DNA of 64,000 nt from Kiritimatiellia bacterium (GTDB lineage Bacteria; Verrucomicrobiota; Kiritimatiellia; WLWN01). Positions within the stretch are counted from its first letter, which is position 1, and every line of letters starts with the position of its first letter. A model generated the notes under the pieces. The model saw nothing but the letters and a program-made list of their open reading frames with translations. It made no database searches and was not told where the DNA came from. Positions 24,305 through 42,998 of this stretch are shown here, piece by piece. Made by a program: the position numbers and the translations under genes. The stretch spans positions 1,484,538-1,548,537 of the forward strand of contig WLWN01000001.1 of assembly GCA_012103575.1 (NCBI GenBank). Direction: 5' to 3'.

Positions 24305-24313
24305 TCTACTTCC

Positions 24314-25780: not shown

Positions 25781-27503
25781 AGTTCACAAATTGCAAATAG
25801 GGTTTGACTTCTCCAGGTGGTACATCCAGATAACGCAAAACCTCTTCAGCTATCTCCTTAAATACAGGCGCGGACACCCGCCCCCCTGTGTGTAAAGGCT
25901 GAGGCTCGTCCACAACAACAATAATACCGATCTCCGGGTTTTCTACGGGGGCAAACCCAACAAAAGATGCAATATTTGCTGTATCTGAGTATCCACCGGG
26001 AACCGGCTTTTGAGCCGTGCCCGTTTTGCCAGCAACATCATATCCATCTATACAGGCGCGGGTTCCTGTGCCCCCTCTTTCGGTAATCCGATGCATCAAA
26101 TAACGCATTTCTTTTGCTGTATCTCTACGTATAGGTCGGGCGATCACTTCGGGGTCAGGGTCAAAAACAGTACGTCCGTGAACATCAACCACTTTTTCAA
26201 TGACAATCGGACGCATTAAAAATCCATCATTGGCAATCGCACATACGGCATTGAGCATTTGTAAGGCCGTCACCGCTATTTCATGTCCCATCGCAATACG
26301 CGTAGAGCTAATCGCTGACCAGCTAGAATAACGGTGGAAAATACCTGCTTCTTCACCGGGCAAATTAAGTCGGTTGGGTTTACCAAAACCAAATGCTCTG
26401 ATGTAGTTCTCCAAACGTCTTTTACCTAGAGATAAGGCTATTTTTGCAGCACCAATATTACTTGATTTTTTTAAAACATCTGCCACAGAAAGGCTGCCAT
26501 ACGGATGAAAATCCCTTAAAGGTCTTCGTTGATAGATCCAACGCCCATGTTCACAATCTATGAGTTGGTCGGACCGTGCAACACCTTCATTTAAAGCCGA
26601 AGCAATCACAATCGCTTTAAATGTAGAACCTGGTTCGTACACATAACTAATAGAACGATTTCGGCGGACCTCTGCAGAAGTGTTTCGGAAACCGTTTAAG
26701 TCATAGCAAGGTCTTGAGACCATGGCTAAAATCTCACCCGTTCTTACTCTTTGAACAATCGCCCAAGCCCCTTTTGGCTGATGCGTTTCCATGGCTCTAT
26801 CCAGCGCTTCCTCAACCATAAATTGTATATTTTGATCCAGTGTCAAATAAATGTCAGAACCTGTTTGCCCTTTAATTTCTAACGTTCGCCGACTGTATAA
26901 TTCACGACGACGACCATCGCGTTCGCTCACACGTAATCCAGACCGGCCCTTTAAATAACGATTCATTTTTTGTTCAATACCTGCACTCCCAACACCTTCC
27001 CAATTTGAAAACCCAATCGCATGACACATCAATGCCCCCTGTGGATAATGACGAGCTGTATGGTCCTCAAAATGAATACCTGTAAGTTGCAAACGGGCAA
27101 TCTCATCTGCCAAATCATTCTTGACAAAGCGTTTCACATAAACAAAACGCTTACCGGGGCGATTTAAACGATCGAAGAGTATTTTCCCATTAAGGTTAAG
27201 GAGTCGGGCAAGGTGGGAAACAACAAACTGTAGATGCCCTTTATCAATAATCACTTTCGGATCAGCAAATATATCTTTGACCGGCAGATCAAGCGCCAAG
27301 ATATTTCCGTTTCGATCTAAAATACGCCCTCTCCCTACTAAAATTTCTTCTTCTGAATGCCTACTCTTTAGGATACGGGTTCTAAGTGCATCATGTGATG
27401 AACCAAAATGTAAAAAGGCTAGGCGGACGCCTAGCCCTGACAGAGCCGTTATGGCAATAGATGCTATCACCCATATACGCCATCTATGACCCAAATCAAT
27501 CAT
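25740..27503 (-). CDS. ftsI: Penicillin-binding protein 3, FtsI-type transpeptidase
   Basis: 587 aa with N-terminal TM, 'STFK' (SxxK), 'SSN' and 'KTGT' transpeptidase motifs. Confidence 0.9.
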   Translation of the reverse strand: MIDLGHRWRIWVIASIAITALSGLGVRLAFLHFGSSHDALRTRILKSRHSEEEILVGRGRILDRNGNILALDLPVKDIFADPKVIIDKGHLQFVVSHLARLLNLNGKILFDRLNRPGKRFVYVKRFVKNDLADEIARLQLTGIHFEDHTARHYPQGALMCHAIGFSNWEGVGSAGIEQKMNRYLKGRSGLRVSERDGRRRELYSRRTLEIKGQTGSDIYLTLDQNIQFMVEEALDRAMETHQPKGAWAIVQRVRTGEILAMVSRPCYDLNGFRNTSAEVRRNRSISYVYEPGSTFKAIVIASALNEGVARSDQLIDCEHGRWIYQRRPLRDFHPYGSLSVADVLKKSSNIGAAKIALSLGKRRLENYIRAFGFGKPNRLNLPGEEAGIFHRYSSWSAISSTRIAMGHEIAVTALQMLNAVCAIANDGFLMRPIVIEKVVDVHGRTVFDPDPEVIARPIRRDTAKEMRYLMHRITERGGTGTRACIDGYDVAGKTGTAQKPVPGGYSDTANIASFVGFAPVENPEIGIIVVVDEPQPLHTGGRVSAPVFKEIAEEVLRYLDVPPGEVKPYLQFVNYENRNTDQKNRAY

Positions 27504-27900
27504 TCATAACGGATCCGGAATACTGTGCATACTGATTTTTTGCCGAGATGGAGTCTTCTTCTCTCGAAGAAAAGACACGAACAATTTGATCTTCGTTTGG
27601 CCATGACATCACACTCCCATTCCGCAACAAAGCGGCTTTAATATTCGGCAATGTTTTCATATTAGACCATTTATACTCTTCATTTAGAAACTGATTATAA
27701 ATCTTCTCCTTTTGAGCCTCTAAGTCCTGTATATAAACCCCTAATGCTTCACATCGACCATGTACCCACAAATAGGATAATGACAATATCGCCGCTAATA
27801 AAAGAATAGATGCTAATGGAGCGGGAAATGCAAATCCCCCTTCTTGTTTCTTCCTATTTTGTTTTTGTTTTTTTCTCTTCGGCATTTTTAATCCTTTCAA
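27496..27900 (-). CDS. Small bitopic membrane protein, FtsL-like by position
   Basis: 134 aa, Lys-rich N-terminus, one TM 'ILLLAAILSLSYLWV', then a coiled-coil-like segment. Located between rsmH and ftsI as ftsL is in dcw clusters. The true start is probably internal, since the ORF overlaps rsmH by 47 nt. Confidence 0.5.
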   Translation of the reverse strand: MKGLKMPKRKKQKQNRKKQEGGFAFPAPLASILLLAAILSLSYLWVHGRCEALGVYIQDLEAQKEKIYNQFLNEEYKWSNMKTLPNIKAALLRNGSVMSWPNEDQIVRVFSSREEDSISAKNQYAQYSGSVMND

Positions 27901-28807
27901 TGACTCTTAATTTAGAGGATCTAGCACGAGGATTTTGCTGAACCTCCTCCTGATCAGGTACAACGAATGTATGCGTTATCCATTGTGCGACCGGCATTGA
28001 ACCTTTCCAACGACTTCCTCCTTCGTTCAACGACTCCCAGCGGCCAACATGCTGGGAAAAGCACTGTTTAACGTTTCTATCTTCCAAACTATGATAAGAA
28101 ATAACAGCCAATCGGCCTCCCTCTCTCAACAATCCCACAGCTTCTTCCAACCCTTTAGACAAAGATTCGAGCTCTCTATTGACCGCTATTCGTAATGCCT
28201 GAAAAGTTTTGGTCGCTGGATGAATCCGCCCCCGCCTTCCCCCTTTTGCATCCGAAACAATCTGAGCAAGCTCCTTTGTCGTCTTAATCCGACCTTTCTG
28301 TCTGGCTAAAACGATCCTATTAGCAACACGCGAAGAGGCTTTTTCCTCGCCGAAATTCCATAAAATATCTGCGATTTCACCGCGATCATATGTATTCACA
28401 ATTTTTTCCGCGGTTACAGCCTGTGTTCGATCCATTCGCATATCCAATAACCCTTCATGCATAAAACTGAACCCTCTATCTCCCTGGTCAATTTGCTCTG
28501 AACTCATGCCCAAATCCATCACAATTCCATCGACTTCTTTTACACGTGCTTTCTGCGCCAACCCTTTAATATCTGAAAAGTTACCTAACAAAAGTTGACA
28601 TTGACCTTCCCGGTCTAACAACCGTTTTTCGGTCCGTTTAATAGCATCCTCATCACGATCAATACCTAATAATCGGCCGTCAACGCCTAACCGCTCTAAA
28701 AGGGCCTTTGCATGTCCACCACTCCCGACTGTTGCATCTATATAGACACCCTCTTTCTTTACGCTTAAAAGCTCCATCATCTGTATGAGCATGACCGGTT
28801 TATGCAT
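27854..28807 (-). CDS. rsmH: 16S rRNA (cytosine1402-N4)-methyltransferase
   Basis: 317 aa, 'HKPVML...YIDATVGSGGHA' SAM-MTase N-terminus characteristic of RsmH/MraW. Confidence 0.9.
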   Translation of the reverse strand: MHKPVMLIQMMELLSVKKEGVYIDATVGSGGHAKALLERLGVDGRLLGIDRDEDAIKRTEKRLLDREGQCQLLLGNFSDIKGLAQKARVKEVDGIVMDLGMSSEQIDQGDRGFSFMHEGLLDMRMDRTQAVTAEKIVNTYDRGEIADILWNFGEEKASSRVANRIVLARQKGRIKTTKELAQIVSDAKGGRRGRIHPATKTFQALRIAVNRELESLSKGLEEAVGLLREGGRLAVISYHSLEDRNVKQCFSQHVGRWESLNEGGSRWKGSMPVAQWITHTFVVPDQEEVQQNPRARSSKLRVIERIKNAEEKKTKTK

Positions 28808-28885
28808 CCGAACCCATTCATCATTTAACGCCTTACTCGTTTAGAGGGGCTAAGAAATCTGTGAGCCTCTTTCAAAACAAGGCTC

Positions 28886-29095
28886 CTATGTAGCCTTTTT
28901 AGGTCTTGTCGTCCTCGCTGCCAAAGGTTTATTCATCATAATCCACTCCCCTTCAGCCATAGCCGGCCCTCCCCATAGCTGAAAACACAACCGGTCACGT
29001 CCATTTGGCAGCATCAAATACCGATTTTCATCTTTCTGAACACCATATAACCCCCGGTTAACTTTCAAAAATTTTGCAATTTTAAACATACTCAT
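28886..29095 (-). CDS. Hypothetical small protein (69 aa)
   Basis: Good SD (AAAGGAACT ACA ATG) and sits between mraZ and rsmH. No recognisable domain. Confidence 0.3.
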   Translation of the reverse strand: MSMFKIAKFLKVNRGLYGVQKDENRYLMLPNGRDRLCFQLWGGPAMAEGEWIMMNKPLAARTTRPKKAT

Positions 29096-29112
29096 TGTAG
29101 TTCCTTTTTTTT

Positions 29113-29204
29113 AGTCAAAAGTCGAAGGTTGAAAGACACATCCTCGAACTTTTGACTTTTATTGACACTGATTCTTCATATTAGACATTTGACTTTCGAC
29201 CCTC
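29113..29204 (-). repeat. Palindromic GTCGAAAG/GTCAAAG-type repeat element (copy R-a) immediately 3' of the mraZ stop
   Basis: 'agtcaaaagtcgaagg ... cctcgaacttttgact' forms a hairpin, and 'gacatttgactttcgaccctc' abuts the mraZ stop TAA at 29205-29207. Same motif family as 37248-37300, 42410-42510 and 42878-42995. Confidence 0.6.
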
Positions 29205-29672
29205 TTAAAATCCAACATACCTCGCTGCTTCGCCCAGCCCAGACTGATTTATAGAACCCTCCACTTCATTCCACTGATCAGGGTTCCACAATTCAAACCC
29301 ATCAAAAGTTCCGACTAAAACAACTTGATTGACCAGACTAGCAAATTCGAGTAGTTCGTCTTTTACGCGAATTCGTCCTTGACTATCCCAGGGCACTAAA
29401 TCAGAGCGAGAGGCGAGCGTACGAGCAAGCTGTCGGCCTTTGGCATCTGCAATTGAAAGGTTTCGCAGTCTTTCAAGCCTTCGGGTCATTTCACGGGCAG
29501 GGTAAACACACAGGCACTTGTCGTTTACCCCAGGCAGTACAAACAACCGCTTTGGTGCTCCCGCCAACTCTCTCCAATCTGAAGGAACCGTTAATCTCTT
29601 CTTCGGATCCAAATTGTGAACATAGGTATTTACAAAAACACCTTGCGAACTTATCCCACTATCCATATGCAT
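29205..29672 (-). CDS. mraZ: Transcriptional regulator MraZ
   Basis: 'VHNLDPKKRLTVPSDWR' matches the MraZ DxxGR motif, and the C-terminal half repeats it. The longest ORF starts at 29720, but a TTGACA-N17-TTTAAA promoter overlaps that 5' end, so the start is more likely the ATG at 29672 or 29666 ('MHMDSG'). Confidence 0.8.
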   Translation of the reverse strand: MHMDSGISSQGVFVNTYVHNLDPKKRLTVPSDWRELAGAPKRLFVLPGVNDKCLCVYPAREMTRRLERLRNLSIADAKGRQLARTLASRSDLVPWDSQGRIRVKDELLEFASLVNQVVLVGTFDGFELWNPDQWNEVEGSINQSGLGEAARYVGF

Positions 29673-29703
29673 ATCTTTTTGGTCCACTTTTCCGTATCTC
29701 CAT

Positions 29704-29738
29704 GACACTTTAAACCACATCGCCCCACTTTATGTCAA
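29704..29738 (-). promoter_or_regulatory. Putative Pmra promoter with MraZ-operator-like direct repeats
   Basis: Minus strand reads 'TTGACAtaaaGTGGGgcgatGTGGTttaaaGTGTC'. A sigma70-like -35/-10 pair overlaps three GTGGG-like repeats at 10-bp spacing, the arrangement bound by MraZ in E. coli. Confidence 0.4.
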
Positions 29739-30130
29739 CAGATTTATTTTATTTTTTTTCAGATAATACATATCCATCTGCGTCCCAAAGATTTGCTTCG
29801 GTGAATTATCGGTTATTGGCGAGTGTAAAAACCTGTTGGTTAAATTTTTTTTCTTCCCTCAAATACATTCCTCTTCATTTCTCAGAAGTTGACTGAAAAC
29901 GGATTTTCCTTGTAGGCCGGATCTCTGACCCGGCACGCTTCCAGATATTGAAATGTTGAATCACAAAAACCTCCAATCATTGTGAGACATAGATCAAAAA
30001 GGTTCCATTCTCTGTAAATGAGCTTTAAAAACCCTTCCAACCCTTGGCAAATCGAAGATCCGCCGTGGTGGAATAGAGCCTCAAAAAATCGTAAATTTTT
30101 TCTTATTGATCTCGCGCAAAAAAGGAAAAT

Positions 30131-30568
30131 TCACTTAAATTTTAATAAAAAATATAAAATGATTTGGCGCAACGCTTCTATTTTCCTGATCGTTTTCAAG
30201 GCCCCTAAAAGTTCTGGATCGCCATAATAGCTTTTGCGTCCTCGTGGCTTGCTTGAACGATGAATTTTACGGCCAAGCAGCTTCGTTGCGTATTTGCGCT
30301 CATCGCCACAGACTTGGCACACTTCATCAAGCAGGTTTGTTTAATACCGTTTGCTAGCCCGTTTATACCGGCGTCGCATTCGCTGTACATATTCTTTTCT
30401 TGATTCGTAACTCATCCTTTTCATCCCCCTTTTTTGGGTGTCATCTTTTGTGAGGCAATTCGGTGACAATAAAAATATATAAACTAGCTTGACAGCACAG
30501 ACAAAAACAGATATAATAACATTATTTTTGCTGTTCCACCACAGCAGATCTTTGAGTTTCGCGGGCAA
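30131..30568 (-). pseudogene. Remnant ORF with zinc-ribbon-like CxxC motif, interrupted by an in-frame TAA
   Basis: 'MSYESRKEYVQRMRRRYKRASKRY' is followed by TAA at 30341-30343 and then, in the same frame, 'TNLLDEVCQVCGDERKYATKLLGRKIH...'. Lies in the AT-rich 29.7-30.6 kb intergenic region. Function unknown, possibly a transposase or regulator N-terminus. Confidence 0.3.
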
Positions 30569-30592
30569 AAAAAATAACTATCAAAGGCTACC

Positions 30593-31585
30593 ATGAAAAA
30601 ATTGAGGTCCATGCTGGGTCAATGTAGATTGGGGATACTGCTATTCCTTGTGTTCATCGGGACGCTGGTTTTGTCTCTGAACTTTCTCTTCGCTCAAGAA
30701 TTTCGGATCACTGATTTCTTCATCGATTCATCCAATGAAGTCCATGTGGTCTATGAGACCGATACCAATTTTTATTATATCCTCGAAAGGGGCCAGGCTG
30801 TTACGGGTATGTGTCTAGCGCCATGGAAATAACCCTGGATCAAGCAGGGACTATGGAACCACGCCAAACACCGACAAACAACTCCACTTCCTTCAACATT
30901 ATGAGAATCCCTACTACCAATGCGATGGACACCGATGGGGACGGTATTGATGACGTATACGAATTGATTCAAAGTCCCCTGGACCCCTTAGACGGCAATG
31001 ATGGGAGTCAAGATTTTGATAATGATGGCAGATCAAGTCTAGAGGAATACCAGATTGGCACGGATCCCTCTTCTCCAAATTTGCCCCCATCGATTACGTT
31101 CTCACACCCCCTTAACAACTCCACATTTGTTGGACCGACCTCCATCGTACTAAACGTTACAGCATCAGATGAAGACGGATCATTAAATGATGTTCGCTTT
31201 TATCAGGGAACAAACTATATCGGGAACGATATCACGAGTCCTTATGAACTTACCTGGAGTAACGTGTTGCCCGGTGGCTATCTATTTACCGCAGAAGCCA
31301 CCGACAATTTTGGAACAACCGTTACCTCCACACCTGTAAATATAGCGGTCAACATCGCGCCCCCCTACGGTCATCCCTCCGCCTTCATCCACGTCGGCCT
31401 CTTTCATCAACCTGACCGGTGCCACCCTTCCCAACGCGCAAATCACGATTGTTGGTGGGGCCTCAAATATAACAGCCACAGCCGATTCTAACGGCATTTA
31501 TTCCGTCAATCTCCCATTACAATCCAATCGGATCAACCGTCTTTTTGTTAGCAGTTCTGATGACCAGGGCAATGTCAGCTCATAA
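30593..31585 (+). pseudogene. Secreted TSP3-repeat (calcium-binding, 'DTDGDGIDD') surface protein, disrupted by frameshifts
   Basis: Signal peptide 'MKKLRSMLGQCRLGILLFLVFIGTLVLSL'. Reading frame switches near 30811-30832 and again at a C6 tract (31360-31365). The tail 'ITIVGGASNITATADSNGIYSVNLPLQSN' resumes in the original frame. TAA at 31583-31585 is in-frame with the next gene. Confidence 0.5.
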
Positions 31586-31600
31586 GTCCCAATCTATGTC

Positions 31601-34477
31601 ATGCAGGATTCAGAGCCCCCGTTCCTTTTCATTGATTTCCCCATCAACAACGCCGTGTTAACCGTGAGCAATACCGTTATCGCTGGACGAGTAGGAGACA
31701 TGCTCAGCGGGTATATGGGGCTTAACGTTATGGTTAATACCCAGGCGGCTAATGTTATCGTGGGTATCGGTCAGAACGGGACCTATGAGCGCGGTAACGT
31801 GCCCTTGGTCATGGGGTCAAATCTGATTACGGCTGTAGCCTCTGATGTCCATGGGAATAGCGTGACGCAACAAGTGAATGTTTTTCGGGCGGCTATCACA
31901 GGCGCCAACATGGTGGCTGTTTCCGGAGATGGCCAAATCACCAATATTTTACAACAATTGGCAGAGCCTATTGTTGTTGAGGTTAAAAAAGCAAATGGCG
32001 CCCCCTTTGCCAACAAGCTGGTTACCTTTGACGTTACCCGCAGTAACGGTCGCTTATTTATAAACGCGGTATCGACCAATGCCGGGACCATGAGTCTACA
32101 GGTCTTTACGGATACAAACGGGTTAGCTCAGGCTTATTGGCGTTTAGGAATGGATGCCGGATGCGGGAATAATCGTATTGCTGTGACCAGCCAGAGTATT
32201 TCAGGGAACGCCTTCTTCTGTGCCTCAGCCATGCCAGGGCCAGCCGGACAAATCAATATCGGTTCGGGGAACAATCAGCGGGTTGAAGCCGGGACCGTCG
32301 CCCCGGAAAAATTACGGGTATGGGTCAGTGATGGGTGTAACGGGGTAACGAACGTTCTAGTTACCTTTACGAGCATTTACGGCGGAGGCCAATTCAATGG
32401 GGCCAACAGCATCACGATCAACACCTCCATAACCGGCCACGCTCAAGTCGATTTTACCCTCGGTCCCGCCGCTGGGAAAAATATGGTTGAAGCCACCTTC
32501 CCAGGCAACACCAACAAATATCCAGTTATTTTCATCCTGTATGGTGTAACGCGCAACATCACTCAACCCACCACCTTTAAGGGTATTGTTATGGACGATG
32601 CCAGTTGTTCTGTGGGGGGCGCCCATTGCATGTTGACCATGGGCAGCGAAACCCTGTCCAATGTGTATAGCGATGATGCCCAGGGCCAATTCACATTCAC
32701 GGCCATGACTAACTCCGGCCCAGCTCATTTAAAGGTGGACGGCAGTGTGGCGACCTTATTAAACAGCAATGCGATTCCTGCGGGTACCTTTCCAGCATTA
32801 GGCTATGATTTAATGGTGATCCCTAACGCACAAAACCAGTTGCCAACGCCCGTCTTCATCCCTCCCCTCAACCCGACGAACGCCGTGCTGTACGACGGCA
32901 CACAAGACGTGATCTTAACCTGTGAAGGGATTGATGAATTAAAGATGATTGTCAAAGCAGGTTCCATGAGGAATAAGGATGGCTCCATTCCCAATCCAGC
33001 CAACCCGGCCTATCTTTCCATTAACCAGGTTCATCACGACGAAATCCCCATGCCAATCCCCGACGGCGCATCCCCGCCTTTTGCGTGGACCTTACAACCG
33101 GGCGGAGCGATGTTTGATCCGCCCGTTCAAATCCAATATCCTAATATATCAGGTTTACCCGCCGGGGCCATTGCCTACTTCTTAAGCTTTAATCACGACA
33201 CCGAACAGTTTAATATCGTTGCCACTGGGAGTGTGGTGCCTGACGGGTCCTGCATCGTCACCGATTCGGGCATGGGCATAAGCGTGGCGGGTTGGGGGTG
33301 CAACTGCCCTCCTTATTCAGCCTCCGGGGACGCGTCAAAAGTCGATCTGGAGATAGATGGTGTTTCTGAAAGCGACGAAACAAGTGTAGGCGCATTTATA
33401 TGTTTAAACAATACGGTGCCTTTATCTCTTTCTGTTGATCCAAGTTATACCACAGGAACCGTTACCATGAGTGTCCTCTCCGGAAACGATAAGATTAAAA
33501 TCGTAGATGATCAAACCAACGAAGTATCCAATCTGACCTGGAACTTGCCGTCAACCTTTCCGGCCCTTTTTGTAAAAGTGATTTTACCCAGTAGCTCTCC
33601 ACGGGATGTGACCTTAGAGTTATTTTATGAAAACGATGATATTGAGTGTCGAGATACCGTTAAATTAACCGTATTTAAAGTCGATATTGCATCGGACGCG
33701 ATAAATCAGTATGATCCTATAAACGCTACGTTTGACCTTATAAATCCAACAGTTGTTTATGGCGGTTCAGAAAATTCAACGGCCGAGAATCTTGAACTGA
33801 CCGCAATGATCGTTCCTTTAGGCCCTGTGCCTGTTAGCTATACATGGTCCTTCTCAAATATCGTTGAAACTGGATTCAACCCAACTCCACCATCTCCTTC
33901 ATCAGCGATAAGTAAGTGGGATGTTGGGGATGTTATTGCATCTTTTGCAGGGCGAGTTACCTTTACTGTGGTGCTCGAATTCCAAGGTGGTACTACCTGC
34001 AAAACAACTAAAGAGTTTGAGGTAGGTATACGTACCGATGATACTATCGTCATCGGTTGGATAGACCCGAACCTAGTGACATTGCCGGGAGGCGCAGCAG
34101 TGTGGCTCACAACAAAGTTCCCGCCTGCAGGCCCTCCTGTTCCTAGTCCATTATGGTCTTCTCTTTTCTTGTTAGACCTTAGTGAGAACTCCACCACTCC
34201 TAACTTTCAGACGCTCACCTTGGCAGACCGCGACTACATCCTAAAATGGATGTTCAAATATTCAGGCGACCCAAATCCGGCAGGAGTTATTCCCGGTGGT
34301 AACTTTAGAGGTAGCACCAACACACACATAGATGAACAGGAGGTCTTAACTTTCAAAGCCTTTCTGACAAATTATAAGTTGTTTAACCGCCTCCAAATCA
34401 AATACCGAGCTAATTCTGTAGGCTTTGTTGGTTTACCCGTTATCTTGAAAGCAAGTACGGGGTTGGGTCTACTATAA
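31601..34477 (+). CDS. Large surface protein with multiple Ig-like/invasin-type beta domains (958 aa); may be the cut-off continuation of the upstream pseudogene
   Basis: Repeated beta-rich segments ('VAVSGDGQITNILQQLAEPIVVEVKKANGAPFANKLVTFDV', 'VTSQSISGNAFF...'). No signal peptide of its own. In the same frame as the end of 30593-31585, separated only by a TAA. Confidence 0.65.
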   Translation: MQDSEPPFLFIDFPINNAVLTVSNTVIAGRVGDMLSGYMGLNVMVNTQAANVIVGIGQNGTYERGNVPLVMGSNLITAVASDVHGNSVTQQVNVFRAAITGANMVAVSGDGQITNILQQLAEPIVVEVKKANGAPFANKLVTFDVTRSNGRLFINAVSTNAGTMSLQVFTDTNGLAQAYWRLGMDAGCGNNRIAVTSQSISGNAFFCASAMPGPAGQINIGSGNNQRVEAGTVAPEKLRVWVSDGCNGVTNVLVTFTSIYGGGQFNGANSITINTSITGHAQVDFTLGPAAGKNMVEATFPGNTNKYPVIFILYGVTRNITQPTTFKGIVMDDASCSVGGAHCMLTMGSETLSNVYSDDAQGQFTFTAMTNSGPAHLKVDGSVATLLNSNAIPAGTFPALGYDLMVIPNAQNQLPTPVFIPPLNPTNAVLYDGTQDVILTCEGIDELKMIVKAGSMRNKDGSIPNPANPAYLSINQVHHDEIPMPIPDGASPPFAWTLQPGGAMFDPPVQIQYPNISGLPAGAIAYFLSFNHDTEQFNIVATGSVVPDGSCIVTDSGMGISVAGWGCNCPPYSASGDASKVDLEIDGVSESDETSVGAFICLNNTVPLSLSVDPSYTTGTVTMSVLSGNDKIKIVDDQTNEVSNLTWNLPSTFPALFVKVILPSSSPRDVTLELFYENDDIECRDTVKLTVFKVDIASDAINQYDPINATFDLINPTVVYGGSENSTAENLELTAMIVPLGPVPVSYTWSFSNIVETGFNPTPPSPSSAISKWDVGDVIASFAGRVTFTVVLEFQGGTTCKTTKEFEVGIRTDDTIVIGWIDPNLVTLPGGAAVWLTTKFPPAGPPVPSPLWSSLFLLDLSENSTTPNFQTLTLADRDYILKWMFKYSGDPNPAGVIPGGNFRGSTNTHIDEQEVLTFKAFLTNYKLFNRLQIKYRANSVGFVGLPVILKASTGLGLL

Positions 34478-34530
34478 TAAATCCTCTGGGAGGACTATTC
34501 GGTGGTTTTGGCAGCATCCTGCCGGGAGTA

Positions 34531-34941
34531 ATGGGCCCTGCAAATGGGCCACCCTCTATACTAAGTTCGTCACCTTCGCGTGTTTCCCTTATAAATGATG
34601 GGAGTTCAGATGCAGCCGGCATCAGGGTGTTTAACACGTTAAAAGGGAAAGGTCTGCCTGCAGGTGTCACGCCCGTTTTTTGGGAAAACATTGGATCGCG
34701 CATCAAATTTATTTTCAACGGCGGGCCAACACCAACCGTCACCCTTCAACCTTACCCAACCTACTTTGAATATCGCAATGGAAGGCATGTCATTACGATG
34801 CCACAAGCGCCTACACCAGCAGCCAATTTTGGAACAGTTCCTTGTACCGGACTTGGAGGGGTTACACCAGGAGGTAGATGTGGAAACGCGTCTTTACCGC
34901 CAGCCGCCTCTGCAAGAATACCTGCGTACACATTGCCTTGA
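34531..34941 (+). CDS. Hypothetical Gly/Pro-rich ORF
   Basis: 136-aa ORF whose frame is open from about 34414 and overlaps the 3' end of the upstream gene. May be a frameshifted C-terminal extension rather than a separate gene. Confidence 0.25.
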   Translation: MGPANGPPSILSSSPSRVSLINDGSSDAAGIRVFNTLKGKGLPAGVTPVFWENIGSRIKFIFNGGPTPTVTLQPYPTYFEYRNGRHVITMPQAPTPAANFGTVPCTGLGGVTPGGRCGNASLPPAASARIPAYTLP

Positions 34942-34978
34942 ATAATAGTAACCCATGAACAAAATCAGGAGATAATTA

Positions 34979-35377
34979 ATGAGAACCCTTTTGCTGATAA
35001 TCGTTTTTCTTTCCGCGAAGACATTGCTCGATGGGGTAGAAGATTACGAGATGACACTTGCCGATACCCCCATTAATATTACTCTACAGTCTAATGGGAT
35101 GTGGAGAGCCTCGACTAGCTCCGAAACACAACTCGGTCTGTACAATGTGAATGGCAATGAACTCCATATCATCACCGAAACAGAAACGAATACCGTGGAC
35201 ATGAGCCAGTGCTTAGTGATACCACAGGGTATTGATTGGGATACTGTGCAGGAGATAGACATGGCGAAAATAGAGTTTGGTTCTCCGATTGTAATCAATA
35301 GATCCACGGGGTACTTGGGGTTTTACCAAACCAACGGTTATCTAGATACGAATTTCGTTGTTACTTGGACCAATTAG
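34979..35377 (+). CDS. Hypothetical secreted protein (132 aa)
   Basis: Signal peptide 'MRTLLLIIVFLSAKTLL', good coding look, no recognised domain. Confidence 0.5.
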   Translation: MRTLLLIIVFLSAKTLLDGVEDYEMTLADTPINITLQSNGMWRASTSSETQLGLYNVNGNELHIITETETNTVDMSQCLVIPQGIDWDTVQEIDMAKIEFGSPIVINRSTGYLGFYQTNGYLDTNFVVTWTN

Positions 35378-35959
35378 AACCATTCGCCAACCATGAGTTG
35401 GATAGGGAGATTTTCGAGGATTCGGAGCCAGTTAATATGTAAAGCGTTAGCTTTTGTGAAAGGGCAGAATAAGTAGAGAAAAGCAGGTAGCGGTTAAATA
35501 TAAATTACAATTTAACCAGAGAGATAAGTTTTAGGGACGGAAGAGTCAGAGAGATTAGTAAAAGCTTGAAATTGAAGGGGTAAAATGAAGAGGATACCAA
35601 TAAAAGATTGTGCCTTAGTTATTCAGTATAGACAAGCAGCCAAATGTATCCACTCGTTGTTCAAAGCAGTAAGATGCAGAATGAATCTTTTGGCAAGATT
35701 TCTGGCCCACGAAACACACGAATGTTCACGAAAAAAAGAGTCATTAATTCCTTGTCTTAAATTTGTGCTGATTCGTGTGTTTCGTGGGCAGAAATTTTTC
35801 TGTTTCCTTTGGTTGCAGCTCTGCTGCTCCATGCTCTTTGCGCTCTCCCTGTTAAACATAACCATCTTTGCCCAGAACCTCAATGAAAGTTGGACGGTAA
35901 CGGTGGCCGGCCAAATTGTGTAAGTCAATCCCAATGGAACCTTTCGTATCCCTAATATC

Positions 35960-37249
35960 TTGACCCCTGACCAATTTGGCAATGCGGGACCGGGATCTCC
36001 GCCCGGTTTTTTAGGCGATGACTTGGTCCGCCTCACCGGATACACGACCGTGAGCGGTCAAACCACCTATGTGTATAGTGATTACTTTCAGATCAAACAG
36101 GCCGGGACCTATGGCGTAACGAACTTGACCTTTACGAATACGCCCCCTCCCCTTCCGGTGTCGATTCGGGCTGTTGTTGACGATCCGACGTTGACGACTC
36201 AAACTCAAGTTCACGTAACCGCCCTCTATGCAAATGGTGGTTCCAGTGATGTAACGCCCCGAGCCCAAGGATCGATTTATCGCATCAGTAATCTAAGCAT
36301 TGCTACGGTCAGTAGCAACGGTCTTGTTACAGCTCTTAAGGAGGGTACGGCCGTGGTGACGGTGGTGAATGATGGCGCTACGTCGGTTACGCGAATAGAC
36401 GTTCTTCCAGGGGCGACTTTAACGACATTAACTGGTTTTGTCCAAGATCAGAATGGGGCTCCTGTGGCTAACTCAACAATCAATTTGCTTGGTGTAGTGG
36501 GTTCAACAACAACGGATTCTCAAGGGCGTTTTACCCTTCCGGGACTAGCGGTCTCCTCTAACATTTTTGAGGTCATCGTTCAGGTCTTTACAACAAACAA
36601 TACGCTTTTTGGAGTCCCTGTTTCAGTGCCCCTGGTGTCCGGAGGATTTACAGATGTTGGAATCATGACCATTGATAGCTTATGTGATGTGTCTCCAATA
36701 AACTGTGTGGATACCGATAGCGATGGTCTTTCTGATACGTTGGAGGTTGCCTTGGGATACAATGCCAATAGCGTTGACTCTGATACAAACGGTGTTCTTG
36801 ATGGGGCAGAGAATTATGATGCAGATGGCCTTTCTAACACAGGCGAAGCATTAGTCGGCGCTGATCCCACCAATATGGATACGGATAATGACAGCATTCT
36901 GGATGGAGACGAAGATAGTGATTTTGATGGACTCCTGGATGGCCAGGAACTCTCTCTTGGCACCGATCCCTTAGATCCAGATACGGATAACGATTGGTGG
37001 AACGATGAAGTGGAGAATCAATTTAATAGTGATCCATTAGATCCTACAGTGACTCCTGATGCATTAGTTGTAGCAACGCCCCTTGTAGAGACATTTGTTT
37101 CCGACACAACAGGAACCGGGGTGGACCTAAGTTTAACAGTGGGTCAACCTCCGGTCTCTACCTTTGTTTCTGATGTAACAGGGAATGGGGTAGAATTGGG
37201 TTTAACAGTGGGTCAGCCCCCTGTGACCGTTTCAACGAATGCGCCATGA
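35960..37249 (+). CDS. Surface protein with BIG2 Ig-like domain, carboxypeptidase-regulatory-like domain, TSP3-type Ca-binding repeats and a 23-aa tandem repeat; N-terminal signal-peptide exon cut off by an in-frame TAA
   Basis: 'SNLSIATVSSNGLVTALKEGTAVVTVV' (BIG2). 'DTDSDGLSDTLE...DSDTNGVLDG...DTDNDSILDGDEDSDFDGLLDG' (TSP3). Tandem 'TFVSD(T/V)TG(T/N)GV(D/E)L(S/G)LTVGQPPV' at 37088-37237. The upstream ORF at 35585-35923 in the same frame carries a signal peptide ('FFCFLWLQLCCSMLFALSLLNITIFAQN') and ends 'WTVTVAGQIV' with TAA at 35924-35926. The sequence 'VNPNGTFRIPNI' then continues in frame. Confidence 0.7.
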   Translation: MTPDQFGNAGPGSPPGFLGDDLVRLTGYTTVSGQTTYVYSDYFQIKQAGTYGVTNLTFTNTPPPLPVSIRAVVDDPTLTTQTQVHVTALYANGGSSDVTPRAQGSIYRISNLSIATVSSNGLVTALKEGTAVVTVVNDGATSVTRIDVLPGATLTTLTGFVQDQNGAPVANSTINLLGVVGSTTTDSQGRFTLPGLAVSSNIFEVIVQVFTTNNTLFGVPVSVPLVSGGFTDVGIMTIDSLCDVSPINCVDTDSDGLSDTLEVALGYNANSVDSDTNGVLDGAENYDADGLSNTGEALVGADPTNMDTDNDSILDGDEDSDFDGLLDGQELSLGTDPLDPDTDNDWWNDEVENQFNSDPLDPTVTPDALVVATPLVETFVSDTTGTGVDLSLTVGQPPVSTFVSDVTGNGVELGLTVGQPPVTVSTNAP

Positions 37250-37300
37250 GAAGAGAAGAAGTCAAATGTCAGAAATCAGAAGTCAAAGGTCATAAGTCCG
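37248..37300 (+). repeat. GTCAAAG-type repeat element (copy R-b) immediately after the stop codon
   Basis: 'TGAGAAGAGAAGAAGTCAAATGTCAGAAATCAGAAGTCAAAGGTCATAAGTCCGAG'. Shares the 'TGAGAAGAGAAGAGTCAAAGGTC' head with copy R-c at 42410. Confidence 0.5.
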
Positions 37301-37420
37301 AGAAATAGAGAATCCTCTCCTGGGAAAGGATTGAGGTGAGGGTCTTTTGGTCAGGTATGAGGAATCAGGAACATTATATGGAGTGCGATGACTTATCACT
37401 GCCTATCATAAAAGCTAAAT

Positions 37421-38627
37421 TTGATTAGAAAGACGAACCAAAAAAAGGAGAAAAAGATGAAAAGAAAAGAGATGATTATAGCTGGGTTCATATCATGGAT
37501 AATCAGTGTTCCTTTTGCCTATGAGCAATTCACTAATTTTAATTCAGGCAGTACGGGCTCAGATGGAGCGCTGAATGTTACGGTAAACACAAATATTGAT
37601 TTACCTCCAGATGGTATATTCCACTTTACAACCATCAATATTGCTCAAAATGTTACAGTTACCTTCAATCGAAATACCTTAAATACCCCCGTTTATCTAT
37701 TAGCACAGGGCGACATTACCATTGATGGAGATATTGATGTATCAGGACAAAATTCACCCCCTGGTGGAGTTGGCGCAGGGGGTCCGGGAGTTTGATGGGG
37801 GGATGTTAGGGTTTTTGAACACCCTGCCAGGTGCTGGGCAGGGATCTGGTGGTGGTCTTGGAGGTGCGTGTGTTTCTTCGGGTACAAACACCGTTGGCGC
37901 TGGGTCATACCAAAGTGTTCCCACCTCTTCTTTTCAAGACGGTAGAGATGGAAGTATATACGGGAGTCCTTTACTGGTTCCCTTGGTGGGAGGATCTGGA
38001 GGAGGGGGGTCAACGGGCACACCTGGGCTTGGAGGTGGAGGTGGTGGCGACGCTATTCTGTTAGCTTCGAATACAAGAATTGAGTTCACTAGTGCGAATA
38101 TATATGCGAAAGGAGCACAAGCAGTAGGTTGTTCTTATAACGAAGGAAGTGGTGGTGCCATATGTTTAGTTGCCCCGATTGTTACAGGAACTGCAGGATG
38201 TCATGCTAATGGGTATAGCACGCGGGCAGGGAATGGGTATATACGTGTTGACGCCATTGATCGTAGTGGAATGAGCGGAATAACATTTAATCCTACACCG
38301 AGTGTGGGAAGCTTTATGGCCGTATTTCAAAATCCTCTCCCTCGTTTAGATGTTATTGAAGCCGCTGGGCAAACAATTCCGGAGGGAGCCAGTACAGCTT
38401 ATCATGTCCATTTACCCTCTGGTTCGCCAAGTAATCAGACTGTTTTGGTTCAAGCAAAAGATTTTTCCGGGACAAATCTACCCATACGGGTTACATTAAC
38501 GCCTGAAAGTGGAGATCCTCTTTCTTATGATGCCGATATTGATATAACTGGGGGTACGGCGACCGGAACGGTTAATGCTGTGTTCCCTGTCAACATCCTC
38601 ACGCATGTACACGCATGGACCAGGTAA
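37421..38627 (+). pseudogene. Secreted Gly-rich surface protein, beta-helix-like by composition, split by a frameshift at a G5 tract
   Basis: Signal peptide 'MKRKEMIIAGFISWIISVPFA' and 'ITIDGDIDVSG' repeats. The first frame ends '...GGVGAGGPGV*' at 37795. The second frame runs from 'ELAQGVREFDGGMLGFLNTLPGAGQGSGGG' to 38627. Removing one G from 'caGGGGGtcc' (37778-37782) fuses them into one ORF of about 402 aa. Confidence 0.55.
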
Positions 38628-38949
38628 CCGATTGAGGATTTCAGATTTCGGATTAGCCGATTGTGGATTGCGGGAAAACAAGAGAATGGATTTAGAGTTA
38701 CCATGTAAGAAGACTAGGAGTAAAGTCCTCCCTTGGGGCATTCATGAAGATGTCCTGGGGATCGTTAACCAAAACTATCGGATCGAGGTTGTGGTCTAGC
38801 AGTGATCGAAAAAATTCCAGGTAACAGTTCGTGTTCTCAAAAATTTAAAGTGGGGGGCGGAGCCGCCTCCCACTTTAGAAAAATGATTACGGGGTAATGA
38901 ATAAACCTCTCGGTTAGCCGCTCAATCCCTAAGCTGTAGTCCAAGCTAT

Positions 38950-39213
38950 TTGGACGTCTATTATCGAAAAATGAAAGCCCGCTTAGGCGCCCCTAAAGCG
39001 ATTACCGCTACAGCTCACAAATTGGCTCGGATTTTCTATAAAATATGGAATGAAAGTCAAGATTTTGACCCTACTCTTTTTGAGCAGCTCAAACAGAAAG
39101 CTCGTACGCGAACTGAAACCTATGTTCGAAAAAAGGCTTATGACTTAGGGTTTGAGTTAATCCTGAATCCGTCAGCTATCGCTTCGGAAGGCGTTTTGGG
39201 GCTCAAAAGTTGA
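38950..39213 (+). mobile_element. IS110-family transposase, C-terminal fragment only
   Basis: 'YRKMKARLGAPKAITATAHKLARIFYKIW' matches the conserved C-terminus of IS110/IS1111 transposases. The roughly 300 upstream residues are absent. A strong hairpin 'AAAGTGGGGGGCGGAGCCGCCTCCCACTTT' lies at 38851-38880. Confidence 0.6.
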
Positions 39214-39378
39214 AAACTTTTTCCTTGAGATGCTCGCTTTTGGGCGGATTGGGACCGGCAAGTATCACCCTGATGAATTTTTTGAGCGTACAGGTCAGAC
39301 TCACTCTGATTTGGCCATTTTGGGGCGTAGGCCTCCTTGGGCAGTCGCCTTAGAGTATTGTTAAAGGTGCACGGAGGG

Positions 39379-40820
39379 CTATGCGAAGGAATGGGCAATA
39401 TCTTGTATCACTTCAAACCAGCGATAACGCTTGCCAAAGTGAAGTTCAATTCGTCCGGCGTGGCGGACCAATCGAACCGCGCAATAAACGATATTTTTGA
39501 GAACCGTTTTGATTCGCCAGCACGGGATGTTGATTTTCTGCGGGGCAAGCCCAGCCCGTTTGATGACCTCTTGGCCAAGACCGCGCAATAGGTTGAAGGC
39601 CACCATGGCGCATAACAGAATAATCTTATTGGCACAGGGTCTCCCCGAAGGCAATCGCTCAACATCAAGATCGCTTTTGAGTTCACTGTGGTACTGCTCG
39701 CTGGGGCCATGTCCATGATAGAGATCTAGCACCGTCTTGGCACGACAAGAGAGGTTCGTCCACCAGGTGTTCACCTCAAGTTTAGGAACCAGAAGTTTCT
39801 GACCATCGATATCGATGGTGCGTTCAATCACTTCGAAGGCCACCGGGACACAAGGGCGGTTTTGGTCACCACCGGGATGGAAATGATCGAAAAAGCCTGT
39901 GTAAACGTTCTTGCCTTCACGACTGTCTTGTTTGTCTCCAACTCGGCGTGCAAGGGCCAGCATTTGTTCAGGACATTCGCGGCGAGGATTTCGCTTTACG
40001 ATAAAATAATGATCCCCAAAAGCGTCGAAGTTATCGGCCGCAGCGTTGCCACTATCAAGCCGAAGCAAACATTTTCCACCTAGGCCCAGGGTTTGGAGCG
40101 TTTCAACGCTGCGGGCAATAAACGCGGTCGTTCCCGACTGACAATGTTGTTTACCGGGTCGAAGTTCGCACTCAAGCATGTGGCCTTGAGTGCCCACATA
40201 GGCAAATATCGGGGCGTAACCATCATGGCCCTTCTAGGTGTAGGAAACGCCTTCTTTCGAAGAGCCTGAGTGATCCAAAGGGCTCACATCGATATCGACG
40301 GGAACAAGATCAAGCCCTTCGACATCTACCTAGCCAAAGGGGCCCAAGGAAAGAAGTTCGGTGTTGAGTTTGCGTAGCCCCACATGGGTTCTGGCTGGGG
40401 GCAGGTCGTCGAAACGACGTCGGAACACCGGCTCAGAGGCTACCCTTTTTAACTCCCCTTTTTAAGTCCAAAGGCATTCATAAAAATCTCATCACCCCGG
40501 TACAGGTCGATATCATTGAAATCGGTTCGACCGTTGCAAAGTAAGCCGATCTGGGTAAGGAGGATCTCCCGATCAGAGATCGCATCGGAGCGGCGTGGTT
40601 GAAAATTGGAGGGAAGAATCCGTTGAGCATGATCCTCAAGCAGCAGGCCGCAAAGATGATTTCCGCTTGTGCTGTTGAGTTCGCCCTTGCCAGTCTTTAT
40701 TTTATATTGTTTCATATACACACCTGTTGGGGTGGGGTTGTTTGTTTGAATACGGGTATGCTCCCCGCTTTAGCCCAACAGGTAATGAAAAATTATCAGA
40801 TTTTATCTGACGGATTCAGG
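39379..40820 (-). mobile_element. Degraded IS1380-family insertion sequence; transposase broken into at least three pieces
   Basis: 272-aa ORF 39379-40197 ('RLDSGNAAADNFDAFGDHYFIVKR', 'DLYHGHGPSEQYHSELKSD...ANKIILLCAMVAFNLLRGLG') resembles the ISEcp1-type DDE transposase middle and C-terminus. In-frame TAG at 40234-40236. N-terminal fragment ORF 40449-40721 ('LCNGRTDFNDIDLYRGDEIFMNAFGL'). Terminal IR 'CCTGAATCCGTCAGATAAAA' reads inward from 40820 and matches the MITE terminus CCTGGATCCGTCAG. Confidence 0.7.
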
Positions 40821-40984
40821 TTAATCACTAAACTGGCTGTTCCCTAAAAAGGTTTCTTAGGAGGATAAAGCTCTAACGCACCTCACACCGCTACTACCAA
40901 CGCTTGTAAACACCTAAAATTCAGTTTCACATTTCATGGATAAATAGATATGTTATCGCTCGCAAATGCGTATAGTTTAGTGAA

Positions 40985-42995: not shown

Positions 42996-42998
42996 CCC

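What the first reader, a model, noticed from the sequence alone, without database searches (positions are those of the whole stretch)
30593..38627. Surface-protein island riddled with homopolymer frameshifts and in-frame TAA codons
Four consecutive secreted Ig-like/TSP3/Gly-rich protein genes are each disrupted. Gene 30593 has a frame change near 30811 and another at a C6 tract (31360-31365), and a TAA (31583) separates it in-frame from 31601-34477. The gene at 35960 has its signal-peptide segment cut off by an in-frame TAA (35924). The gene at 37421 is split at a G5 tract (37778-37782). The candidate explanations are real pseudogenisation of adhesins no longer needed, slipped-strand phase variation at short G/C tracts, or homopolymer sequencing errors. 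The in-frame TAA codons favour the first for at least two genes.
Basis: seen in the sequence. Interest (0 to 1): 0.55.

Follow-up and report, generated by a model that had tools for sequence, protein, structure and literature searches.

The report
Decayed surface-protein genes in sponge symbiont
Three neighbouring genes for secreted cell-surface proteins in a sponge-dwelling bacterium (the pateamine producer 'Candidatus Patea custodiens') are genuinely dead, killed by four frameshifts and two stop codons found identically in other assemblies, which is ordinary gene decay in a host-restricted symbiont, not sequencing error or an on/off switch.

Summary
The disruptions are real, but the anatomy needs correcting. 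There are three genes, not four.

- **Gene 1 (30593-34941, about 1,450 codons):** It also has one in-frame TAA (31583).
- **Gene 3:** a TAA (35921-23) replaces a conserved Gln just after the signal peptide.
- **Gene 4:** the break is at base 37790, not in the G5 tract.

Only two of the four frameshifts lie in homopolymers.

Intact homologues run collinearly across every lesion. The island is base-for-base identical in a 42.9-kb contig of a separate metagenome assembly (WLWG) and in a Logan assembly of SRR10090328. The window comes from the hybrid PacBio/Illumina genome of 'Ca. Patea custodiens', a symbiont of the sponge Mycale hentscheli.

TAA is the commonest normal terminator in the window, so reassignment is excluded. 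No single tract change could restore gene 1, so phase variation is excluded. No intact allele exists in 5.8 billion protein clusters.

Other relics sit nearby: zwf, Alpha-E, an IS1380 element, and an FG-GAP/ASPIC gene at a second locus. The best reading is fixed pseudogenes from genome erosion. Real but ordinary; interest is low to moderate.

The parts
30489..30517 (+). Perfect sigma-70-type promoter consensus (TTGACA, 17 nt, TATAAT), 76 nt upstream of the gene 1 ATG
   Evidence: Read directly from the sequence. Function not tested.
30593..34941 (+). Gene 1 pseudogene, about 1,450 codons. It encodes a secreted multi-domain protein: signal peptide, TSP3-like Ca-binding motifs, Big_7, Big_6/CarboxypepD_reg, Glucodextran_B-like domain, a ~600-aa conserved core ending in WGCNCPPY, and a ~330-aa conserved C-terminal domain.
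   Evidence: Pfam. Homologues of 900-1,900 aa are collinear over all pieces. P0205 (1,571 aa) and P0200 (1,532 aa) cover 31199/31436-34938.
30818..30822 (+). Frameshift 1 of gene 1. The frame changes from mod3=2 to mod3=1, consistent with a 1-nt deletion. It is not in a homopolymer (context CTAGCGCCATGG).
   Evidence: tblastn HSPs of P0002 and P0008 abut at 30820 with contiguous query residues. Sequence.
31360..31365 (+). Frameshift 2 of gene 1, at the C6 tract. The frame changes from mod3=1 to mod3=2, consistent with a 1-nt insertion into an ancestral C5.
   Evidence: HSP boundaries fall at 31361-31365. With C5 the linker has the same 18-residue length as in the homologues (residues counted by hand). 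The site can only be placed within 31360-31395.
31583..31585 (+). In-frame TAA in gene 1, in the linker between the Big_6-like domain and the conserved core
   Evidence: Single HSPs span it. Homologues have P, Q or R at this position.
34459..34462 (+). Frameshift 3 of gene 1, at a G4 run. The frame changes from mod3=2 to mod3=1, consistent with a 1-nt deletion from an ancestral G5.
   Evidence: The open frame 34414-34938 matches the extreme C-terminus of 139 proteins. Eight homologues are collinear across 34444-34471.
34979..35377 (+). Small 132-aa ORF with a signal-peptide-like N-terminus. It looks intact and has no detectable relatives.
   Evidence: No Pfam or NCBIfam hit. No tblastn hit in 85 loci.
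35765..37249 (+). Gene 3 pseudogene. It encodes a secreted protein with Big_2, CarboxypepD_reg and TSP3 repeats. The start at GTG 35765 is inferred; the first in-frame ATG is at 35585.
   Evidence: Pfam. Homologues of 460-590 aa share the arrangement of signal peptide followed by AQxLDETWTVTVAGQxVQVNPDGSF.
35921..35923 (+). In-frame TAA in gene 3, 16 codons after the predicted signal-peptide cleavage site (IFA/Q). It replaces a conserved Gln, which implies CAA to TAA.
   Evidence: In alignment A2, 6 of 8 homologues have Q at this column. P0013 also has Q.
37457..38627 (+). Gene 4 pseudogene. It belongs to an uncharacterised secreted Gly-rich family of about 390 aa with more than 1,260 members.
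   Evidence: No Pfam or NCBIfam model matches. An intact paralogue in the same genome is P0077 (GKR87_08200).
37790..37790 (+). Gene 4 frameshift. A lone G sits between codon GGA (37787-89, frame mod3=2) and TTT (37791, frame mod3=0). This is either a 2-nt deletion of a Gly codon or a 1-nt insertion. The G5 tract at 37778-82 is intact.
   Evidence: The near-invariant motif GGPGGFDGG in homologues, read against the codon layout.
39151..40831 (-). Degenerate IS1380-family element bounding the island on the right. It has 28-nt imperfect inverted repeats, and its transposase is split over at least three frames.
   Evidence: PF13701. NF033539 at 192.8 bits against a cut-off of 180. Inverted repeats, frames. 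All short-read contigs end at its edges.

Best explanation
The island is a cluster of three genes for secreted cell-surface proteins that have become fixed pseudogenes. The host is 'Candidatus Patea custodiens', a Kiritimatiellaeota symbiont of the sponge Mycale hentscheli.

Small spontaneous mutations destroyed each reading frame close to its 5' end. They comprise one C-to-T-type nonsense change at a conserved Gln, one further nonsense codon, and four 1-2-nt indels. Only two of the indels lie in short G/C runs. As a result, every long remaining fragment lacks a signal peptide and cannot reach the cell surface.

After the first hit, further lesions accumulated neutrally; gene 1 carries four. 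The mutant alleles are present in every assembly recovered.

What is shown: the lesions, their presence in other assemblies, and collinearity with intact homologues. What is inferred: relaxed selection in a host-restricted lifestyle as the cause, the loss of product, and the attribution of the short contigs to other sponge specimens.
For: 1. Homology runs across every lesion. tblastn of intact homologues is collinear over all frame changes and spans both TAAs. Alignments place each lesion.
2. The lesions are not artefacts. L005 (WLWG01000428.1, a 42.9-kb contig) is 100% identical to window 21700-39288. L001 (Logan, SRR10090328) is identical from 30357 to 39187.
3. Provenance. The window's genome is a MaSuRCA PacBio+Illumina hybrid of a 2014 specimen. 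The other four specimens were collected in 2003 at a different site, sequenced by Illumina only and assembled with SPAdes (PMC7157528).
4. No intact allele was found. In three searches of 5.8 billion clusters the only hits at 100% identity are the truncated products P0001, P0335 and P0076.
5. Seven contigs carry P0001 with the same neighbouring fragment proteins.
6. TAA terminates 15 of 30 ordinary genes in the window.
7. About 15 kb of adjacent PKS genes contain 89 homopolymers of 5 nt or more and stay in frame.
8. Erosion is seen elsewhere in the same genome: a zwf relic, a split Alpha-E gene, an IS1380 relic, and an FG-GAP/ASPIC gene in four pieces on L007.
9. The window copies keep the lowest share of family-invariant residues in all three families.
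Against: - The margin in invariant-residue retention is narrow: 0.891 against a next-lowest 0.911, 0.917 against 0.939, and 0.897 against 0.906. Lineage divergence could explain it.
- The fragments are otherwise well preserved, and gene 1 keeps a perfect promoter consensus. Inactivation is therefore recent, and transcription or residual fragment function is not excluded.
- No read-level data were available, so minority intact alleles cannot be ruled out.
- Assigning the short contigs to the 2003 Illumina-only specimens is an inference from contig lengths and the paper's methods, not from the records themselves.
- The hybrid assembly does carry at least one homopolymer discrepancy elsewhere (A7 against A8 at 48561-67).
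Confidence: 0.88

Rival explanations
1. Homopolymer or other sequencing and assembly errors in a long-read-based genome. Under this reading the genes are intact in the organism.
For: The genome is a PacBio+Illumina hybrid. It differs from an assembly of another sample by A7 against A8 at 48561-67, which splits a Peptidase_Mx gene only in the window.
Against: The island is identical in WLWG01000428.1 and in the Logan assembly of SRR10090328. Two frameshifts are not in homopolymers, and the two TAAs are substitutions. The 89 homopolymers of 5 nt or more in the adjacent PKS genes are all in frame.
Confidence: 0.02
2. Slipped-strand phase variation: reversible on/off switching of adhesin genes at short G/C tracts.
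For: Two of the lesions lie in C6 and G4 runs in surface-protein genes.
Against: The tracts are shorter than typical contingency tracts (my own knowledge). Their length is the same in all assemblies. Gene 1 also carries a non-tract frameshift and a TAA, so no tract change restores it. The lesions in genes 3 and 4 are not in tracts.
Confidence: 0.02
3. Programmed recoding: ribosomal frameshifting, stop-codon readthrough, or TAA reassignment yields full-length proteins.
For: The gene 3 TAA falls at a column where homologues have Gln; the gene 1 TAA at one where one of seven has Gln and the rest P or R. Both are followed by GTC.
Against: TAA is the commonest terminator of ordinary genes, 15 of 30. 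No X XXY YYZ heptamer was seen at the junctions on reading the codon layouts. Homologues are single uninterrupted ORFs. Gene 1 would need four separate recoding events.
Confidence: 0.02
4. Selected (adaptive) loss: inactivating exposed surface proteins was favoured, for example to avoid recognition or phagocytosis by the sponge, rather than the genes merely becoming dispensable.
For: Disruptions are concentrated in secreted repeat proteins: 3 of 4 island genes, plus the FG-GAP/ASPIC gene on L007. The alleles are identical in every assembly recovered.
Against: Non-surface genes (zwf, Alpha-E) are also decayed. Large non-essential genes are simply bigger neutral targets. The population is nearly clonal, so no polymorphism test is possible.
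Confidence: 0.2
5. The fragments still work as split genes, for example the 958-aa and 399-aa ORFs that NCBI annotates as ordinary proteins.
For: Long ORFs with ATG or TTG starts remain, and public annotation calls them as proteins. A strong promoter consensus is retained.
Against: The fragments lack the signal peptide that all homologues have. Domain boundaries are cut. The C-terminal domain of gene 1 is out of frame.
Confidence: 0.05

Closest known systems
Pseudogene accumulation in recently host-restricted bacterial symbionts and pathogens (for example Sodalis glossinidius, Mycobacterium leprae; cited from my own knowledge)
   Same: Multiple small indels and nonsense mutations occur in non-essential genes, with several hits per gene. 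IS elements and IS relics lie nearby. Some metabolic genes are also decaying (zwf). Public annotation calls the fragments as separate hypothetical proteins.
   Different: At 3.1 Mb, the genome is described as showing no extreme reduction (PMC7196800). Neither Mycale paper discusses pseudogenes in this organism in its main text. The genome-wide pseudogene load was not measured here.
Phase-variable surface-protein genes (homopolymer contingency loci such as Neisseria opa/pilC and Haemophilus lic; my own knowledge)
   Same: They are surface or adhesin-like genes interrupted at G/C runs.
   Different: The tracts here are only 4-6 nt, show no length variation between assemblies, and are accompanied by irreversible lesions. 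The island does not behave as a switch.
Bacterial Ig-like / TSP3-repeat secreted proteins (Pfam Big_2, Big_6, Big_7, TSP3_bac, CarboxypepD_reg)
   Same: Genes 1 and 3 carry these domains above the Pfam gathering thresholds.
   Different: Most of each protein has no Pfam or NCBIfam model. This includes the 600-aa WGCNCPPY core, the 330-aa C-terminal domain and the N-module of gene 3. No family member has a tested function. The matches to CglD and MtsD fall far below cut-off.

Membership tests
Pseudogene (decayed relic of a protein-coding gene) | Sequence homology to intact genes continues across the disruption | tested here: met
   tblastn is collinear over all four frame changes and both stops. 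Alignments A1 and A2.
Pseudogene (decayed relic of a protein-coding gene) | The lesions are in the organism's DNA, not in one assembly only | tested here: met
   The sequence is identical in L005 (WLWG) and L001 (Logan SRR10090328). Seven contigs carry the truncated product.
Pseudogene (decayed relic of a protein-coding gene) | No full-length functional product is made | not testable with these tools
   This needs proteomics or transcriptomics. It is inferred from the loss of the signal peptide on all large fragments.
Pseudogene (decayed relic of a protein-coding gene) | Relaxed constraint (excess change at conserved positions) | tested here: inconclusive
   The window copies rank lowest in all three families, but by narrow margins.
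Phase-variable contingency locus | The lesion lies in a simple-sequence tract, and changing the tract length restores the ORF | tested here: not met
   Only 2 of 6 lesions lie in tracts (C6, G4). Gene 1 needs four repairs. The lesions in genes 3 and 4 are outside tracts.
Phase-variable contingency locus | Tract length varies within or between populations | tested here: not met
   There is no length difference among three assemblies. Read-level heterogeneity could not be tested.
Programmed ribosomal frameshift or readthrough | A slippery motif at the shift site, and conservation of the interrupted arrangement in homologues | tested here: not met
   No X XXY YYZ heptamer was seen at the junctions on reading the codon layouts by eye; no motif search was run. 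All homologues are single ORFs.
Stop-codon reassignment (TAA as sense) | TAA is not used as a terminator in ordinary genes | tested here: not met
   TAA ends 15 of 30 ordinary genes, including mur/mraY and the men-operon genes (menE, menC).
IS1380 family insertion sequence (right flank) | Transposase matches the family model above cut-off; terminal inverted repeats are present | tested here: met
   NF033539 scores 192.8 bits against a cut-off of 180, over profile positions 155-418 only. The 28-nt inverted repeats are 79% complementary. The transposase is broken.
Pfam Big_7 / Big_6 / Big_2 / TSP3_bac / CarboxypepD_reg domains | Score at or above the Pfam gathering threshold | tested here: met
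   Big_7 45.7 (threshold 24.1), Big_6 33.3 (27.6), Big_2 29.4 (22.8), TSP3_bac 35.8 (25), CarboxypepD_reg 37.4 (32.3), Glucodextran_B 32.6 (27).

The most novel reading that the evidence does not exclude
The dead genes may be the remains of an undescribed surface system that is conserved across phyla. The ~600-aa core of gene 1 (ending WGCNCPPY) is 42-59% identical in Verrucomicrobiota, Planctomycetota, Acidobacteriota, Hydrogenedentota and other phyla. In 63 of 80 loci the N-terminal module of gene 3 follows it within 1-4 kb. Gene 4 belongs to a family of more than 1,260 secreted proteins. A confident predicted fold for that family (pLDDT 85) has no match in the PDB. On this reading, inactivation of all three genes in 'Ca. 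Patea custodiens' would mark, and could help to date, the abandonment of a free-living surface-attachment apparatus on entering the sponge.
Probability: 0.35. Interest if true: 0.5.

Novelty: new member of a known kind. Interest (0 to 1): 0.3.

Why it matters
The finding shows that the pateamine-producing sponge symbiont is losing genes, including a cluster of conserved secreted surface proteins and at least one core metabolic gene (zwf). The two genome papers do not discuss this in their main text.

It has a practical consequence for annotation. At least seven 'hypothetical proteins' in the public record of this island are fragments of three genes.

It also gives a rule for using this assembly. 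The hybrid assembly has at least one homopolymer discrepancy (A7 against A8), so each frameshift has to be checked against the assemblies of the other samples before it is called biological.

Beyond that, this is an ordinary case of gene decay.

Tried and rejected
- **TAA reassignment:** rejected from terminator usage.
- **Giant-gene frameshift at 4312-4430:** rejected. These are two intact PKS genes with an ATGA overlap.
- **RNA genes:** Rfam and tRNA scans of the whole window found nothing.
- **Gene 4 'repair' at the G5 tract:** rejected. It gives GAGVREFDGG, which conflicts with the family's near-invariant GGPGGFDGG.
- **Left-flank element (30134-30418, minus strand):** it looked like an IS transposase N-terminus from memory. 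Pfam, NCBIfam and plasmid tblastn gave no support, so it is left unexplained.
- **ORF132 and the ORFs at 38575-39210:** no homologues in 85 fetched loci and no family hits.
- **PDB fold search for the gene 4 family:** no match at E <= 0.001.
- **Close relative with intact orthologues:** none was found. The best hit in genome contigs is 59% identical, so no dN/dS test or dating was possible.
- **Literature search by accession:** no hits. The source was identified through the NCBI protein name and the Storey 2020 paper.
- **The shared 'TAA GTC' context of the two stops:** treated as coincidence, because Val is the conserved next residue in both families.
Full report
**Source of the window**

The top database hit to the largest ORF is NCBI protein GKR87_07765 of a 'Kiritimatiellae bacterium' MAG, whose longest contig is 3,096,896 bp. 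Neighbouring genes are found on metagenome contigs WLWF, WLWG and WLWI, and on ENA records labelled STOR20-1_SAMN127186xx.

Storey et al. 2020 (mBio, PMC7157528) describe this dataset. They sequenced five specimens of the sponge Mycale hentscheli. The pateamine producer 'Candidatus Patea custodiens' (Kiritimatiellaeota) was resolved on a single 3.09-Mb contig. That contig came from a MaSuRCA hybrid assembly of PacBio Sequel and Illumina reads from a 2014 specimen. The other four specimens were collected in 2003 at another site, sequenced as Illumina PE150 only, and assembled separately with SPAdes.

The window layout is:
- trans-AT PKS genes and tailoring genes (1-17393)
- the dcw cell-division cluster (18079-29720)
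- the island (30593-38627)
- an IS relic
- housekeeping operons.

**The observation**

The frame changes and in-frame stops are present. They interrupt real genes.

tblastn of intact homologues of 900-1,900 aa (about 50% identity) is collinear. It runs in frame mod3=2 over 30593-30820, then mod3=1 over 30820-31365, then mod3=2 from 31361 onward. Query residues are contiguous at both junctions, and single HSPs run through the TAA at 31583-85. P0013 aligns across the TAA at 35921-23.

**Corrections to the anatomy**

1. The pieces at 30593 and 31601 belong to one gene.

2. Gene 1 does not end at 34477. The open frame 34414-34938 matches the extreme C-terminus of 139 proteins in an exhaustive HMMER search. 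NCBI annotates part of this frame as a separate 136-aa protein. Eight intact homologues are collinear across 34444-34471. The codon layout places a 1-nt deletion in the G4 run at 34459-62, implying an ancestral G5.
   - Gene 1 was therefore about 1,450 codons (30593-34941).
   - It carries three frameshifts and one nonsense codon.

3. Frameshift 1 lies at about 30818-30822, in CTAGCGCCATGG, with no homopolymer.

4. Frameshift 2 is compatible with the C6 tract. With C5 the linker regains the 18-residue length seen in the homologues (residues counted by hand).

5. In gene 4 the G5 tract is not the lesion. Homologues have the near-invariant motif GGPGGFDGG.
   - Frame 2 reads A-G-G-P-G through GGA (37787-89).
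   - Frame 0 resumes with TTT GAT GGG GGG at 37791.
   - A single G is left stranded at 37790. This is either a 2-nt deletion of a Gly codon or a 1-nt insertion.

6. The gene 3 TAA (35921-23) sits 16 codons after the predicted signal-peptide cleavage site. At this column 6 of 8 homologues have Gln, within the conserved N-terminus AQxLDETWTVTVAGQxVQVNPDGSF. That implies a CAA-to-TAA transition.

**Artefact or real**

L005 is a 42.9-kb contig of metagenome assembly WLWG. It is 100% identical to window 21700-39288 without gaps.

L001 is a Logan assembly of run SRR10090328. It matches 30212-39187 with no gaps and seven mismatches, all upstream of gene 1 at 30245-30356.

Seven contigs carry the truncated product P0001, all with the same neighbouring fragment proteins. 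The hybrid assembly holds this genome on a 3.09-Mb contig. I therefore infer that the short contigs, which stop at the IS element, come from the Illumina-only SPAdes assemblies of other specimens.

The next best hits were about 50% identical.

The two adjacent PKS genes cover about 15 kb and contain 89 homopolymers of 5 nt or more, including C7, A7 and T7. They remain in frame.

The concern about homopolymer errors is nonetheless legitimate for this assembly. At 48561-67 the window has A7 where WLWI01000908.1 has A8. This splits a Peptidase_Mx gene only in the window, and the truncated product is not on record anywhere else.

**Alternatives**

- *TAA reassignment* is excluded. TAA terminates 15 of 30 ordinary genes here.
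- *Phase variation* fails on anatomy. Only a C6 and a G4 tract are involved. Their lengths are constant between assemblies. Gene 1 would need four independent repairs, including a substitution.
- *Programmed frameshifting* fails. I saw no slippery heptamer at the junctions on reading the codon layouts, and all homologues are uninterrupted ORFs.

**Enrichment and context**

The island holds six lesions in 8.0 kb. The other ~54 kb holds two or three. The binomial P is 1e-4 to 3e-4, and the gene-level Fisher P is 0.003-0.007.

Decay is not confined to the island:
- A zwf (G6PD) relic lacks about 260 central residues (62480-63284).
- The Alpha-E gene is split at about 43600, and is split identically in three other assemblies.
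- The IS1380-family element at 39151-40831 has a transposase broken over at least three frames.
- At a second locus of the same genome (L007), an FG-GAP/UnbV_ASPIC gene is in four pieces. That locus comes from a different metagenome assembly (WLWI). The gene lies next to a weak rve/HTH_32 relic and just upstream of an intact paralogous pair, a TSP3 protein plus P0077.

The pattern fits ongoing genome erosion with IS activity. Large secreted proteins are prominent among the casualties.

**How recent**

The fragments are otherwise well preserved, and a perfect TTGACA-17-TATAAT consensus remains 76 nt upstream of gene 1. In leave-one-out comparisons the window copies retain the lowest share of family-invariant residues in all three families, but only narrowly. 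This suggests fairly recent inactivation. Relaxed constraint is not demonstrated.

**What the genes were**

*Gene 1* encoded a signal peptide, TSP3-like Asp-rich motifs, Big_7, Big_6/CarboxypepD_reg and a Glucodextran_B-like domain. It also had a ~600-aa core ending in WGCNCPPY and a ~330-aa C-terminal domain with no Pfam model. The core occurs in 115 loci of GTDB representative genomes, at 42-59% identity among the 80 kept. These span Verrucomicrobiota, Planctomycetota, Acidobacteriota, Hydrogenedentota and other phyla.

*Gene 3* has Big_2, CarboxypepD_reg and TSP3 repeats. Its N-terminal module follows the gene 1 core within 1-4 kb in 63 of 80 loci, and the two are fused in P0013.

*Gene 4* belongs to a secreted Gly-rich family of about 390 aa with more than 1,260 members and no Pfam or NCBIfam model.
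- In the three loci examined, a large Ig/TSP3 protein immediately precedes a member of this family.
- An AlphaFold model of the intact paralogue has pLDDT 85 and pTM 0.83.
- The model has no PDB match at E <= 0.001.

The function of these proteins is untested. Surface adhesion is an inference from the domain types.

**Verdict**

These are real, fixed, multi-lesion pseudogenes of three secreted surface-protein genes in a sponge symbiont. Its emphasis on homopolymers, its gene count and one lesion position needed correction, and one frameshift had been missed. The phenomenon is a known kind. The modest interest lies in documenting erosion in the pateamine producer, and in the uncharacterised, widely conserved protein families that are being lost.

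Noticed in passing
window 48561-48567: The window has A7 where WLWI01000908.1 (L002) has A8. This frameshifts a Peptidase_Mx gene (48011-48589 plus 48556-49038) only in the hybrid assembly, and the truncated product is on record nowhere else. It is probably an assembly homopolymer error, or a strain variant.
   Followed up: partly
window 62480-63284 (-): Relic of glucose-6-phosphate dehydrogenase (zwf). Only G6PD_N positions 2-54 and G6PD_C positions 135-296 remain, in two frames. About 260 central residues have been deleted.
   Followed up: partly
window 42957-43935 (+): An Alpha-E domain gene of the CP_ATPgrasp / Alpha-E / transglutaminase operon is split by a frameshift at about 43600, next to a C4 run. 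The split is identical in three other assemblies (L002-L004). A 23S_rRNA_IVP gene sits between the CP_ATPgrasp and Alpha-E genes.
   Followed up: partly
window 39151-40831: Degenerate IS1380-family element with 28-nt imperfect inverted repeats and a multiply broken transposase. Every short-read contig covering the neighbourhood ends at its edges, which implies a multi-copy repeat in the genome.
   Followed up: yes
L007 2843-6798 (same genome, second locus): An FG-GAP/UnbV_ASPIC secreted-protein gene is broken into four pieces, by two frame changes and one in-frame stop. A weak rve/HTH_32 relic follows it. Both lie just upstream of an intact TSP3 protein plus P0077 pair. P0077 lacks the family's conserved C-terminal ...PVNxxTHVxAWTR, and its contigs end 86 bp after its stop codon.
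   Followed up: partly
window 30212-30418: The Logan contig L001 starts at 30212 and carries seven SNPs within 30245-30356. This overlies a degenerate minus-strand ORF (MSYESRKEYVQRMRRRYKRASKRY*...LLDEVCQVCGDERKYATKLLG) with no Pfam, NCBIfam or plasmid match. It could be a strain variant or a repeat relic.
   Followed up: partly
window 30489-30517: A perfect sigma-70 consensus promoter (TTGACA, 17 nt, TATAAT) is retained upstream of the dead gene 1.
   Followed up: no
window 31583-31594 and 35921-35938: Both in-frame TAA codons are followed by GTC and a nearby CCAAT (TCA TAA GTC CCA AT; GTG TAA GTC AAT CCC AAT). This is probably coincidence, because Val is conserved at the next position in both families.
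   Followed up: no
window 1-17393 (-): Two intact giant trans-AT-type PKS genes lie here: one of more than 1,476 aa that runs off the window start, and one of 3,530 aa. Their stop and start codons overlap in an ATGA. They are followed by an ACP, an SDR and an AMP-ligase. This is part of one of the PKS clusters of 'Ca. Patea custodiens'; which cluster was not determined.
   Followed up: no
window 37457-38627; P0077; alignment A3: The gene 4 family has more than 1,260 members. They are about 390 aa long, with a signal peptide, a Gly-rich repetitive region and a C-terminal beta-sandwich ending in WTR. The family has no Pfam or NCBIfam model. A confident AlphaFold model (pLDDT 85, pTM 0.83) has no PDB fold match at E <= 0.001.
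   Followed up: partly
window 31586-33400; loci L011-L090: The ~600-aa core of gene 1 (ending WGCNCPPY) is unusually conserved for a surface protein, at 42-59% identity across several phyla. In 63 of 80 loci the N-module of gene 3 follows it. This suggests an undescribed conserved system or frequent horizontal transfer.
   Followed up: partly
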